Shown one piece after another: positions 1-1,197 of a DNA stretch of 1,197 nucleotides. Within the stretch, counting starts at the first letter, position 1, and each line of letters opens with the position of its first letter. This DNA comes from a phage, in the sequence record OR846210.1, one strand, 5' to 3'. A program made the translations under genes and the position numbers. Below the pieces are notes generated by a model, which had not been told where the DNA came from, searched no databases, and worked only from the letters and a program-made list of their open reading frames with translations.

Positions 1-181
1 CGATTAATCTATAATCCAGTTTTTTTCTGTTTTTTTGAACCATAGATATACATCTCATTTGCCAGACGCTACCAAAATAAAAAATTAAGACGGCGATTGT
101 TATTGGCCTGCATAAGTAATCGATATAATAAAAATTCATTACTGCGAATAATCTCATGTCGCCAGTATTTCCGTAATCCAT
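1..181 (-). CDS. speculative small hydrophobic protein, N-terminal part; frame continues beyond window start
   Basis: The minus-strand frame is stop-free from position 259 to position 2, where the window ends (86 codons), despite ~29% GC. First ATG at 181..179 gives MDYGNTGDMRLFAVMNFYYIDYLCRPITIAVLIFYFGSVWQMRCISMVQKNRKKLDYRLI..., with a transmembrane-like stretch followed by basic residues. The only Shine-Dalgarno-like element (AAGGA) is too close to the ATG (1-nt spacer). Y/F/I/N/K-rich composition is also what chance translation of AT-rich DNA gives. Confidence 0.2.
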   Translation of the reverse strand, partial: MDYGNTGDMRLFAVMNFYYIDYLCRPITIAVLIFYFGSVWQMRCISMVQKNRKKLDYRLI

Positions 182-402
182 TTCCTTTTTTAGATATGGA
201 AAATAATAAGCAATGTAAGAGTTTGATTTTTTCTTCCTCCAATGAAGAAAGCTAGATTGTTAAATAAATGTTATTATCGTGGGGGGTTCACGTATCAATT
301 GGTAAAAATACTATAAGATGGTTTTTTATAATACTTCATTTGCTATGCAAACTGAACATTTGATGCTAAAAAATAATAAAGGGTATTACTTTAATTCAAC
401 AC
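1..402. other. AT-rich (~29% GC) segment with phased A/T tracts; probable intergenic or horizontally acquired DNA
   Basis: Hand count gives 117 G+C in positions 1-400. Homopolymeric T7 runs at 20-26 and 30-36, A-rich tracts at 74-85 and 366-380, and several TATAAT-like hexamers. Composition changes abruptly at ~400-430, exactly at the 3' end of the coding block. Confidence 0.5.
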
Positions 403-423
403 CGCCGGGCTTTATACCCGGCG
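403..423 (-). terminator. candidate intrinsic terminator hairpin downstream of the 151-aa gene
   Basis: Perfect inverted repeat cgccggg (403-409) / cccggcg (417-423) with a 7-nt loop (ctttata), 7 nt beyond the TGA stop on the minus strand. The following minus-strand sequence is AU-rich (GUGUUGAAUUAAAGUAAUACCCUUUAUUAUUUUUU), but the U-run is displaced ~20 nt from the stem, so this is not a textbook terminator. Confidence 0.4.
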
Positions 424-429
424 AGAGAT

Positions 430-885
430 TCAACAATCGTATTGCCAGCTACTAACTAAGGCATAAAGGTGGCTGGGGGAGTAGCGCCAGCTATCGTTTA
501 GTCCGAGAAATTCAGCGCAAAACTCGCTGCAAAACAGTTTATCTTTGCGCTCCCGGTTATACAGCGCGATACCGAGCGCGCCCTGCCAGTCATAGCGTTT
601 GCCGTTATGTTTGCGGAAAAAGGCCTCCACTTCCGGCAACGTGGCCTTTAACGGTAGCTTATCCCACTTATCGTCCGGTAACGGTATTATCTTTCCCCGC
701 ACGCCGCGATCGCGAAACGATGCAGAGTAGCAGAGGTATTCATTACCGCCGTGCGCCACCGCCAGTTCACAGTGAGAGTAGATACCGCGCGTGACTTTGC
801 GCGTGAGCCAGTCGGCAAACCTGGCGATGCCGCGATACTCCGATCGCCCCTTATAGCAAGCGAGCCAGACGGTGGTTTGACTCAT
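430..885 (-). CDS. hypothetical Cys/His-rich protein, 151 aa; possible circularly permuted papain-fold (NlpC/P60-superfamily, YaeF/YiiX/LRAT-like) hydrolase
   Basis: Complete ORF from ATG (885..883) to TGA (432..430) with enterobacterial-type codon usage (ccg, ctg, gcg, cgc frequent). Start overlaps the upstream stop as ATGA. No N-terminal hydrophobic signal sequence; net positive charge by my count. Functional guess rests on His38 in YSHCELAVAHGG and Cys119 in FCSEFCAEF, which resemble the His-then-Cys order of permuted NlpC/P60 enzymes. This is motif recollection only. Confidence 0.75.
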   Translation of the reverse strand: MSQTTVWLACYKGRSEYRGIARFADWLTRKVTRGIYSHCELAVAHGGNEYLCYSASFRDRGVRGKIIPLPDDKWDKLPLKATLPEVEAFFRKHNGKRYDWQGALGIALYNRERKDKLFCSEFCAEFLGLNDSWRYSPSHLYALVSSWQYDC

Positions 886-1197
886 GGCTGCCAGCCTGAT
901 GAATAGTCGTAGTCGAGCACTTCCTGGATATCCCCCAGCGCTTCTACCGCCGCAATATGCCGCTGCGCGTTGGCAAACAGGCGCATATCGTGATCCATAG
1001 TGACGGTTTCAAACTGCGCGGCGATGTCGTTGGTCAGTTTAATCAAACCGTTATTTTTGGTCTGCCACATTAACCCTGCCGGAATCTGCTTTGCCTGACC
1101 CATTCTGGTGAGTGACATTTGCTGAATACGGCTGTTAGCATCGCTGTGGAAATGGTTGCCGTCGATAACGATATAATCGGTGGTAACGGTGTCGCGG
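882..1197 (-). CDS. hypothetical protein, 5'-truncated by the window edge (C-terminal ~105 codons visible); function unknown
   Basis: The track ORF 882..1118 (78 aa) starts at an ATG with no purine-rich Shine-Dalgarno in the preceding ~20 nt (minus-strand upstream reads gctaacagccgtattcagcaa). The same frame stays open to position 1196 with no stop, reading ...RDTVTTDYIVIDGNHFHSDANSRIQQ before MSLTRMGQ... Codons there are typical enterobacterial preferred codons (acc, gtt, atc, gac, ggc, aac, ttc, cac, agc, cgt, cag). The stop TGA (884..882) overlaps the next gene's ATG (885..883). Confidence 0.6.
   Translation of the reverse strand, partial: RDTVTTDYIVIDGNHFHSDANSRIQQMSLTRMGQAKQIPAGLMWQTKNNGLIKLTNDIAAQFETVTMDHDMRLFANAQRHIAAVEALGDIQEVLDYDYSSGWQP

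What the first reader, a model, noticed from the sequence alone, without database searches (positions are those of the whole stretch)
882..1197. Upstream gene is probably under-called by the ORF track and continues past the window edge
The frame containing ATG 1118 remains open for all 26 upstream codons in the window and uses high-frequency enterobacterial codons. There is no ribosome-binding site ahead of ATG 1118 or the next in-frame ATG. The visible segment includes YIVIDGNHFHSDAN, which looks like a conserved-motif region. The true product is therefore likely well over 78 aa, and annotating it as a 78-aa protein would hide its identity.
Basis: seen in the sequence. Interest (0 to 1): 0.45.

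Follow-up and report, generated by a model that had tools for sequence, protein, structure and literature searches.

The report
Window-truncated phage tail-fibre chaperone gene

Summary
Observation confirmed and interpretation supported. The minus-strand frame ending at TGA 884-882 is open to the window edge: 104 codons, 26 of them upstream of ATG 1118, and neither internal ATG has a Shine-Dalgarno sequence.

The window is 100% identical to GenBank OR850896.1. There the frame continues for 97 more codons to an ATG that would sit at window coordinate 1487. That ATG is the first start after an in-frame TAA and lies 4 nt after the stop of a 589-aa P2 gpH-like tail-fibre gene.

The 201-aa product carries a C-terminal DUF4376 domain. 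NCBI already holds a 98%-identical Salmonella protein under that name, and RefSeq annotates the E. coli ortholog as a 201-aa CDS.

Its position after the fibre gene and experiments on other DUF4376 proteins (Alteromonas phage V22 gp27, Campylobacter CJIE1) make it a tail-fibre assembly chaperone.

The window holds almost exactly the conserved module. The N-terminal domain just beyond the edge is swapped as a cassette together with the fibre tip.

The host element lies between lysC and yjbD in Salmonella and E. coli. It has tail, lysis and regulator genes only, so it looks tailocin-like.

A conserved 151-aa permuted papain-fold gene overlaps the chaperone stop. Interest is low.

The parts
882..1197 (-). 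The 3' 315 nt (codons 98-201 plus the TGA stop) of a 606-nt, 201-aa tail-fibre chaperone gene. This is essentially its conserved C-terminal DUF4376 module. The whole gene would span window coordinates 882-1487.
   Evidence: Translation. Full ORF in the identical contig L002 2194..2799(-). Pfam PF14301 DUF4376 scores E=6.7e-12 on the full protein and 6.7e-10 on the window fragment. PHROG 1807 and 2837 'tail' families also match.
1134..1175 (-). The conserved motif YIVIDGNHFHSDAN, residues 105-118 of the 201-aa protein, with an invariant F113-H114-S115-D116.
   Evidence: Alignments A1 (24 sequences) and A2 (91 sequences): FHSD is invariant, and D104, Y105, I106, I108 and H112 are at least 90% conserved. 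In the AlphaFold model the motif forms the first beta-hairpin (E105-108, E111-114) that follows the long helix 76-102.
882..885 (-). An ATGA overlap. The TGA stop of the chaperone gene (884-882) overlaps the ATG (885-883) of the next gene, which implies translational coupling.
   Evidence: ORF list and sequence. The same 4-nt overlap appears in every related locus examined.
430..885 (-). The downstream 151-aa gene (STM4198 homolog), last gene of the tail operon. Its product has a permuted papain-like (NlpC/P60-type) fold with an invariant His38 and Cys119.
   Evidence: No Pfam or NCBIfam hit. Alignment A3 shows an invariant YSHCE and CSE. A profile search gives PDB 3kw0 'cysteine peptidase' at E=9.1e-5. 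The AlphaFold model (pLDDT 81.6) finds 3kw0 as top Foldseek hit with probability 1.00.
403..423 (.). A perfect 7-bp GC-rich hairpin (CGCCGGG, 7 nt, CCCGGCG) 7 nt after the stop of the 151-aa gene, at the point where GC content drops from 54% to 31%. It may mark the end of the transcript or mRNA, but it has no T-tract.
   Evidence: Inverted repeat I5. The terminator scan found no canonical intrinsic terminator.

Best explanation
Window 882-1197 (minus strand) is the C-terminal half of a 201-aa tail-fibre assembly chaperone gene that the window boundary cuts. ATG 1118 is only an internal methionine, Met124.

Shown: the gene sits in the position of phage P2 gene G. It lies directly after the gpH-like tail-fibre gene, 4 nt from its stop, and directly before a 151-aa gene, which it overlaps by 4 nt. 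The surrounding element is P2-like and holds tail genes only. It lies between lysC and yjbD in Salmonella (STM4198-STM4219) and in E. coli.

Inferred mechanism: the protein has two modules. The variable, all-beta N-terminal domain (about residues 1-75, outside the window) recognises the C-terminal tip of its own fibre. The conserved helix/hairpin DUF4376 module (residues 87-193, inside the window) self-associates and helps the three fibre chains come into register and trimerise from the C-terminal end. After that the chaperone either leaves, as V22 gp27 does, or stays as a cap.

Shown: because the DUF4376 module and the fibre N-terminus are conserved, they act as flanks for homologous recombination. 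This exchanges the fibre tip plus chaperone N-domain as one specificity cassette.
For: Gene extent.
- The window is 100% identical to OR850896.1.
- The ORF there is 201 aa, and its ATG is the first start after an in-frame TAA, 4 nt after the fibre stop.
- 144 homologs were found. Many are exactly 201 aa, and those aligned share the same N-terminus.
- RefSeq annotates the E. coli ortholog as a 606-nt 'DUF4376 domain-containing protein'.

Family.
- PF14301 scores 46.2 bits against a cutoff of 25.
- PHROG tail families 1807 and 2837 match at E of 1e-44 to 1e-46.
- One source names homologs 'phage tail fiber assembly'.

Gene context.
- The order gpV-gpW-gpJ-gpI-fibre-DUF4376-151aa is found in every locus examined.

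Allele link to classical chaperones.
- The 233-aa allele at the same locus (STM4199 type) combines a Caudo_TAP / PHROG 105 'tail fiber assembly' N-terminal part with the same DUF4376 C-terminus.

Co-variation.
- Four N-terminal classes (201, 233, 217 and 188 aa) each pair with a different fibre C-terminus (Gly_rich_2; Collar; none assigned; Gp53-like_C).
- Against the window's source, the fibre N-terminus is 89-96% identical, DUF4376 74-92% and the 151-aa protein 76-98%.
- Across classes, the fibre C-terminus is only 8-17% identical and the chaperone N-domain only 6-22%.
- DNA homology resumes at chaperone codon 94-104, which is 9-11 nt beyond the window edge for two of the three alleles of other classes.

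Selection.
- dN/dS is 0.10 between the Salmonella and E. coli orthologs.

Structure.
- The AlphaFold model has pLDDT 93.9, with an all-beta N-domain and a helix-hairpin-helix-hairpin-helix C-domain.

Experiments on family members.
- V22 gp27 (DUF4376) is required for a functional fibre and is not part of the final complex (PMC7289586).
- A5 and V22 chaperones are predicted to form trimeric caps with beta-hairpin 'tentacles' (PMC10579305).
- The gene downstream of the Campylobacter CJIE1 H-fibre carries DUF4376 and is required for fibre function (PMC7882524).
Against: - No experiment exists on this protein or on this element.
- Sequence and profile searches of the PDB found nothing.
- PHROG labels the families 'tail fiber protein' and 'tail protein', not chaperone.
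- tblastn found no close homolog in 50,697 phage records other than the source contig and a Salmonella chromosome. The nearest were about 30-39% identical 'tail protein' or 'putative tail fiber assembly protein' genes of Moraxella and Acidovorax phages.
- The Salmonella element carries a gtrABC insertion between gpV and gpW and could be defective.
Confidence: 0.85

Rival explanations
1. The 78-aa ORF starting at ATG 1118 is a real, independent small gene, and the open frame upstream of it is incidental.
For: It is what a mechanical ORF list returns for the window. The fragment alone still scores as DUF4376.
Against: There is no Shine-Dalgarno sequence before ATG 1118 or ATG 1103. The frame continues for 123 codons upstream of ATG 1118 in the identical contig. 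The upstream codons, including the FHSD motif, are among the most conserved in the family. Met124 itself is not conserved, being L or I in many homologs. The full-length, high-coverage homologs are 187-245 aa, and the shorter entries are mostly partial records.
Confidence: 0.01
2. The 201-aa protein is not a transient chaperone. It is a structural distal component of the fibre, either a tip adhesin or a cap that stays bound, as Mu Tfa and the T2/S16 gp38 adhesins do, and it contributes to receptor binding.
For: PHROG 1807 and 2837 are labelled 'tail fiber protein' and 'tail protein'. The N-domain co-varies with the fibre tip, as expected for any tight partner. The literature reports that Mu Tfa remains bound to the fibre tip (as quoted in PMC7289586 and PMC7882524).
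Against: The only DUF4376 protein tested biochemically, V22 gp27, separates from the mature fibre, which stays active (PMC7289586). The most conserved part is the DUF4376 module rather than a variable surface. That fits an assembly role better than a receptor-contact role.
Confidence: 0.12
3. The gene is a decaying relic of a dead prophage and no longer has a function.
For: The element has no head, integrase or replication genes. Older literature calls it a 'putative phage' region (PMC2137926). The Salmonella copies carry a gtrABC insertion inside the tail cluster. An acetyltransferase remnant lies next to it in the window.
Against: The reading frame is intact. dN/dS is 0.10 between the Salmonella and E. 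coli orthologs. Gene order and the 4-nt overlaps are the same in all loci examined. Fibre-tip and chaperone cassettes are still being exchanged. Regulator and lysis genes are retained. This is the pattern of a domesticated tail element, not of decay.
Confidence: 0.05

Closest known systems
DUF4376 tail-fibre chaperones of Alteromonas phages: V22 gp27 (195 aa, DUF4376 at 92-184) and A5 gp9
   Same: Same Pfam family (PF14301), at the C-terminus of a protein of about 200 aa. Both are encoded immediately downstream of the tail-fibre gene of a contractile-tail module. Both have an alpha-helical body with protruding beta-hairpins (here; PMC10579305 for A5 and V22).
   Different: The sequences are too distant for pairwise detection: tblastn at E<=1e-3 found no Alteromonas phage. 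The N-terminal domains are unrelated. The protein here sits in a chromosomal tail-only element of enterobacteria and has never been tested.
STM4199 of Salmonella Typhimurium LT2 and the S. Infantis SARB27 protein EHB39176.1 (233 aa), the allele at the same locus
   Same: The last 115 residues are 92% identical. The DNA is 97% identical from chaperone codon 94 through the 151-aa gene. The position is the same, and so is the ATGA overlap with STM4198.
   Different: The N-terminal domain is unrelated (6% identity) and in STM4199 is Caudo_TAP / PHROG 105-like. It partners a different fibre tip: a 486-aa fibre with a Collar domain, against a 589-aa fibre with a glycine-rich C-terminus here.
Classical Tfa chaperones: Mu gpU/U', P2 gpG and lambda Tfa (Pfam Caudo_TAP, PF02413)
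   Same: Same genomic position after the fibre gene, similar size (175-200 aa), and the same logic of a fibre-specific domain joined to a conserved domain.
   Different: There is no detectable homology. The 201-aa protein has no Caudo_TAP hit. Mu U and U' are Caudo_TAP over their whole length and have no DUF4376 hit. hhalign probability is 0.4%. The Mu Tfa structure was not among the listed fold-search hits. The statement in PMC7882524 that Mu U carries DUF4376 is not supported by these tests.
C-terminal intramolecular chaperone domains of the phage T5 L-shaped fibre and the K1F endosialidase (Peptidase_S74 type)
   Same: By the account in PMC10579305, DUF4376 chaperones resemble these domains: a helical core that trimerises, with beta-hairpin 'tentacles' that embrace the fibre.

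Membership tests
DUF4376 (Pfam PF14301) | Sequence scores above the Pfam gathering threshold | tested here: met
   The full protein scores 46.2 bits against a cutoff of 25 (E=6.7e-12, residues 87-193 on profile positions 3-104 of 106). The window fragment scores 39.8 bits and the 78-aa ORF 31.5 bits.
DUF4376 tail-fibre chaperones (V22 gp27 type) | A protein of about 200 aa with DUF4376 at the C-terminus, encoded immediately downstream of the tail-fibre (receptor-binding protein) gene | tested here: met
   The protein is 201 aa with the domain at 87-193. Its ATG lies 4 nt after the stop of the 589-aa Phage_tail_fib / Phage_fiber_2 protein. The arrangement is the same in all related loci.
DUF4376 tail-fibre chaperones (V22 gp27 type) | Required for production of a functional fibre and absent from the mature fibre | not testable with these tools
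   Known only for V22 gp27 (PMC7289586) and, for the requirement alone, for the Campylobacter CJIE1 gene (PMC7882524).
Caudo_TAP (Pfam PF02413; Mu U, P2 G, lambda Tfa) | Sequence or profile similarity to the family | tested here: not met
   The 201-aa protein has no PF02413 hit at E<=0.1. hhalign of its family profile against Mu U gives probability 0.4%. Mu U and U' score 127-128 bits as positive controls. The 233-aa allele does have a partial Caudo_TAP N-terminal hit (29.7 bits).
Intramolecular chaperone / Peptidase_S74 domain | Sequence or fold similarity to the T5 or K1F C-terminal chaperone domain | tested here: inconclusive
R-type tailocin (phage-tail-like bacteriocin), for the host element | A cluster of contractile-tail, baseplate and fibre genes with a regulator and a lysis cassette, but without capsid, packaging, replication or integration genes | tested here: met
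   In E. coli A10, between lysC and yjbD, the genes are: Mor activator, holin, lytic transglycosylase, membrane protein, Gp37, sheath, tube, tail assembly protein, tape measure, U, X, D, V, W, J, I, fibre, DUF4376 and the 151-aa gene. This E. coli locus also carries two opposite-strand genes (nucleotidyltransferase and slipin) before yjbD. S. Infantis has the same content, STM4198-STM4219, plus gtrABC.
R-type tailocin (phage-tail-like bacteriocin), for the host element | Production of bactericidal tail particles | not testable with these tools
   I found no paper in the searchable library describing particles from this locus.

The most novel reading that the evidence does not exclude
The conserved tail-only element between lysC and yjbD in Salmonella and E. 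coli (STM4198-STM4219 in LT2) may be a functional R-type tailocin. On this reading its target range is diversified by exchanging a two-gene cassette, the fibre tip plus the chaperone N-domain. The exchange happens by recombination between the fibre repeats and the invariant DUF4376 module that the window captures.

The always-coupled 151-aa permuted papain-fold protein would then be a third, so far unrecognised, component of tail-fibre modules. Its family has 3,880 representatives at 50% clustering and no Pfam or NCBIfam hit for any member scanned. It is also found after a side-fibre/200-aa gene pair in a Pasteurella lambda-like prophage.
Probability: 0.3. Interest if true: 0.5.

Novelty: already known. 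Interest (0 to 1): 0.15.

Why it matters
For annotation, this is a window-edge artefact. The gene is 201 aa, not 78 aa. NCBI holds a 98%-identical Salmonella protein and RefSeq annotates the E. coli ortholog, both named 'DUF4376 domain-containing protein'. Calling it from ATG 1118 would delete the domain that I infer carries fibre specificity.

The biological value lies in the surroundings, not in the finding itself. The window happens to hold the conserved recombination anchor of a swappable fibre-tip and chaperone cassette. The same variability underlies the use of STM4200 as a Typhimurium-specific PCR marker (PMC6201931). The element it belongs to has the architecture of a tailocin that has not been characterised, as far as I could find.

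Tried and rejected
- Megablast of the window against 5,426 complete E. coli genomes found no match. The E. coli orthologs are too diverged at DNA level: 71% amino-acid identity, with blastn identity of about 73-76%.
- phmmer and profile searches of the PDB with the chaperone gave nothing significant. The best hit was a transcriptional regulator at E=0.36.
- I tested the published statement that Mu gpU contains DUF4376 and rejected it.
- NCBIfam gave no hit for the chaperone, the 151-aa protein or the neighbouring 242-aa protein.
- The Rfam scan of the window found nothing near threshold. The promoter and terminator scan found no terminator and one promoter-like site, which is no more than chance.
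I used the 98%-identical P0001 instead.
- Literature searches on STM4198-STM4219 locus tags and on tailocins gave no functional study of this locus. I found only comparative hybridisation, PCR-marker and screening papers. The E. coli ST131 'tailocin' paper (PMC9205054) describes other regions, and I could not link it to this locus.
- dN/dS between the two closest Salmonella copies is uninformative because there are too few substitutions.

Full report
**What is in the window.** On the minus strand, the frame that ends with TGA at 884-882 is open all the way to the window edge. It holds 104 sense codons (1196..885) and no stop. The 20 nt upstream of ATG 1118 (CTAACAGCCGTATTCAGCAA) and of the next in-frame ATG at 1103 (AGCAAATGTCACTCACCAGA) contain no Shine-Dalgarno-like sequence. 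The other two frames of that strand carry several stops each. GC3 is 63% against GC2 of 37%. Only the codon-usage remark was not scored against a codon table.

**Where the gene really starts.** The window is 100% identical to positions 3527-4723 of GenBank OR850896.1, a 6-kb unannotated contig labelled 'Salmonella phage S.Kent 1-2-1' and flagged UNVERIFIED_ORG. It is 97.6% identical to a chromosomal contig of S. Infantis SARB27.
- In the identical contig (L002, window = 1313..2509) the ORF runs from L002 2799 to 2194. That is 606 nt and 201 aa, or window coordinates 882..1487.
- Reading the sequence, the ATG is preceded by an in-frame TAA seven codons upstream, with no other start codon between them.
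- The ATG lies 4 nt after the TGA of the preceding 589-aa gene, and GGTGA overlaps that stop codon.
- 144 homologs were found. Dozens are exactly 201 aa, and those aligned start with the same MTxYxYYxP.
- RefSeq annotates the E. coli ortholog as a 606-nt 'DUF4376 domain-containing protein'.
ATG 1118 encodes the internal Met124, a position that is L or I in many homologs.

**What the protein is.**
- Pfam places DUF4376 (PF14301) at residues 87-193 (46.2 bits, cutoff 25). The window fragment alone scores 39.8 bits and even the 78-aa ORF scores 31.5 bits.
- PHROG families 1807 and 2837 (category 'tail') match at E of 1e-44 to 1e-46.
- The upstream neighbour is a P2 gpH-type fibre with Phage_tail_fib, four Phage_fiber_2 repeats and a weak, just sub-threshold match to the glycine-rich domain (Gly_rich_2) at its C-terminus.
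- In all related loci the gene order is gpV-gpW-gpJ-gpI-fibre-DUF4376-151aa. The gene therefore occupies the position of P2 gene G.
- Two experimental precedents exist for DUF4376 proteins in this position. Alteromonas phage V22 gp27 is required for a functional fibre and separates from the mature fibre (PMC7289586). The gene after the Campylobacter CJIE1 H-fibre is required for fibre function (PMC7882524).
- For the A5 and V22 chaperones, AlphaFold-Multimer models suggest a trimeric helical cap with beta-hairpin 'tentacles' (PMC10579305).

**Relation to classical Tfa proteins.** One paper states that Mu gpU carries DUF4376 (PMC7882524). I tested this. Mu U and U' are Caudo_TAP (PF02413) over their whole length (127-128 bits) and have no DUF4376 hit. 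Profile comparison of the DUF4376 family with Mu U gives probability 0.4%. The 201-aa protein has no Caudo_TAP hit. It therefore works like a Tfa but is not a member of that family. The 233-aa allele at the same locus (STM4199 type) is informative: it joins a Caudo_TAP / PHROG 105-like N-terminal part to the same DUF4376 C-terminus. This shows that DUF4376 serves as an alternative conserved C-terminal module in the same functional slot.

**Cassette structure.** The same chromosomal locus holds at least four alleles.

| Chaperone length | Fibre length | Fibre C-terminal domain |
|---|---|---|
| 201 aa | 584-589 aa | glycine-rich C-terminus (weak Gly_rich_2 match) |
| 233 aa | 486 aa | Collar |
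| 217 aa | 493 aa | none assigned |
| 188 aa | 457 aa | Gp53-like_C |

Relative to the window's source, identity splits cleanly.
- Conserved parts: fibre N-terminus 89-96%, last 115 residues of the chaperone 74-92%, 151-aa protein 76-98%.
- Swapped parts, across classes: fibre C-terminus 8-17%, chaperone N-domain 6-22%.

At DNA level, homology between classes stops within or after the fibre repeats (fibre codons about 254-366). It resumes at chaperone codon 94, or 104 for one allele. Codon 94 corresponds to window coordinate about 1206-1208, only 9-11 nt beyond the window edge. The window thus contains almost exactly the conserved module. The specificity-bearing half lies just outside it. dN/dS between the Salmonella and E. 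coli orthologs is 0.10 in both halves, so the gene is under purifying selection.

**The host element.** In E. coli A10 the cluster lies between lysC and yjbD. It comprises a Mor-family activator, holin, lytic transglycosylase, a membrane protein, Gp37, sheath, tube, tail assembly protein, tape measure, U, X, D, V, W, J, I, fibre, the DUF4376 protein and the 151-aa protein. There are no capsid, packaging, replication or integration genes. S. Infantis has the same content (STM4198-STM4219) at the same site, plus a gtrABC operon between V and W. This is the architecture of an R-type tailocin. I found no paper describing particles from this locus. The literature I could search calls it a 'putative phage' region (PMC2137926) and uses its variable fibre gene STM4200 as a Typhimurium-specific PCR target (PMC6201931). 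The fibre-chaperone-151aa stretch matches 199 of 5,426 complete E. coli genomes.

**The downstream gene.** The 151-aa gene (window 430-885, minus strand) starts with an ATG that overlaps the chaperone's TGA (ATGA at 882-885).
- It has no Pfam or NCBIfam hit.
- An alignment of 32 homologs shows an invariant Y-S-H-C-E (His38), D59, G-V-R and C-S-E (Cys119).
- A profile search of the PDB finds 3kw0, 'cysteine peptidase', at E=9.1e-5, aligning both motifs.
- An AlphaFold model (pLDDT 81.6) has 3kw0 as top Foldseek hit (probability 1.00, TM 0.56), with much weaker (E about 0.5) hits to the Aichivirus 2A protein among the later matches. This is a permuted papain-like (NlpC/P60-type) fold with His before Cys.
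- The family is large: 3,880 representatives at 50% clustering with E<=1e-3. Ten of them also lack any Pfam hit.
- A 45%-identical homolog sits in the same relative position, overlapping the gene before it, after a side-fibre/200-aa gene pair in a Pasteurella lambda-like prophage.
- Some databases name members 'enoyl-CoA hydratase', which looks like an annotation error.

**Verdict.** The thing found is an ordinary annotated gene cut by the window, so novelty is 'already known' and interest is low. The more interesting, still unproven, reading concerns the surroundings: a conserved tailocin-like element whose specificity cassette recombines at the DUF4376 module, with an uncharacterised papain-fold third gene.

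Noticed in passing
window 430-885 (minus strand): A 151-aa gene (STM4198 homolog) overlaps the chaperone stop by ATGA. It has no Pfam or NCBIfam hit, but it has an invariant His38 and Cys119 and a permuted papain-like fold (PDB 3kw0, profile E=9.1e-5; Foldseek probability 1.00). The family is large (3,880 representatives at 50% clustering) and some members are misnamed 'enoyl-CoA hydratase'. A homolog occupies the same position after a fibre/200-aa gene pair in a Pasteurella lambda-like prophage (L016).
   Followed up: yes
L015 (E. coli A10) 7192-22832; L001 plus L020 (S. Infantis, STM4198-STM4219): The element holding the window lies between lysC and yjbD in both species. It contains only a Mor activator, a holin and transglycosylase lysis cassette, and P2-like tail, baseplate and fibre genes. 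There are no head, integrase or replication genes. This is R-type tailocin architecture, and I found no paper describing it as such.
   Followed up: partly
L002 2518-3863 against L001 (just beyond window position 1197): A cassette of about 1.35 kb, holding the fibre C-terminus and the first 93 or so codons of the chaperone, is replaced between serovars. Both flanks are 95-97% identical. At least four such cassettes exist at this locus. This probably explains why STM4200 works as a serovar-specific PCR marker.
   Followed up: yes
window 1-429: This is an AT-rich stretch (31% GC against 52-54% in the two genes). The minus-strand ORF at 69-242 is the N-terminal remnant of the hexapeptide acetyltransferase gene that is intact in S. 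Infantis (L001 7637-8242). In the window's source, homology to that gene ends about 47 bp left of the window, and a different 242-aa gene with no family hit follows (L002 279-1007).
   Followed up: partly
window 403-423: A perfect 7-bp GC hairpin (CGCCGGG / CCCGGCG, 7-nt loop) lies 7 nt after the stop of the 151-aa gene. It has no T-tract and was not called as an intrinsic terminator.
   Followed up: partly
L002 (OR850896.1), whole record: The 6-kb record labelled 'Salmonella phage S.Kent 1-2-1' (UNVERIFIED_ORG, coverage about 3x) is collinear at 96-98% identity with Salmonella chromosomal contigs, apart from a short divergent stretch inside the fibre gene. The match runs past the end of the tail element into flanking DNA. 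It is probably host chromosomal DNA rather than a phage genome.
   Followed up: partly
L003-L005 3150-5985; L001 13302-16137: In Salmonella a gtrABC O-antigen glucosylation operon is inserted between baseplate genes V and W of the tail cluster, in the same orientation. The E. coli copy lacks it.
   Followed up: no
L007 (phage Mu) 2976-3503 and 3532-4065: Mu U and U' are Caudo_TAP proteins with no DUF4376 hit. This contradicts the statement in PMC7882524 that the Mu U gene encodes a DUF4376 domain.
   Followed up: yes
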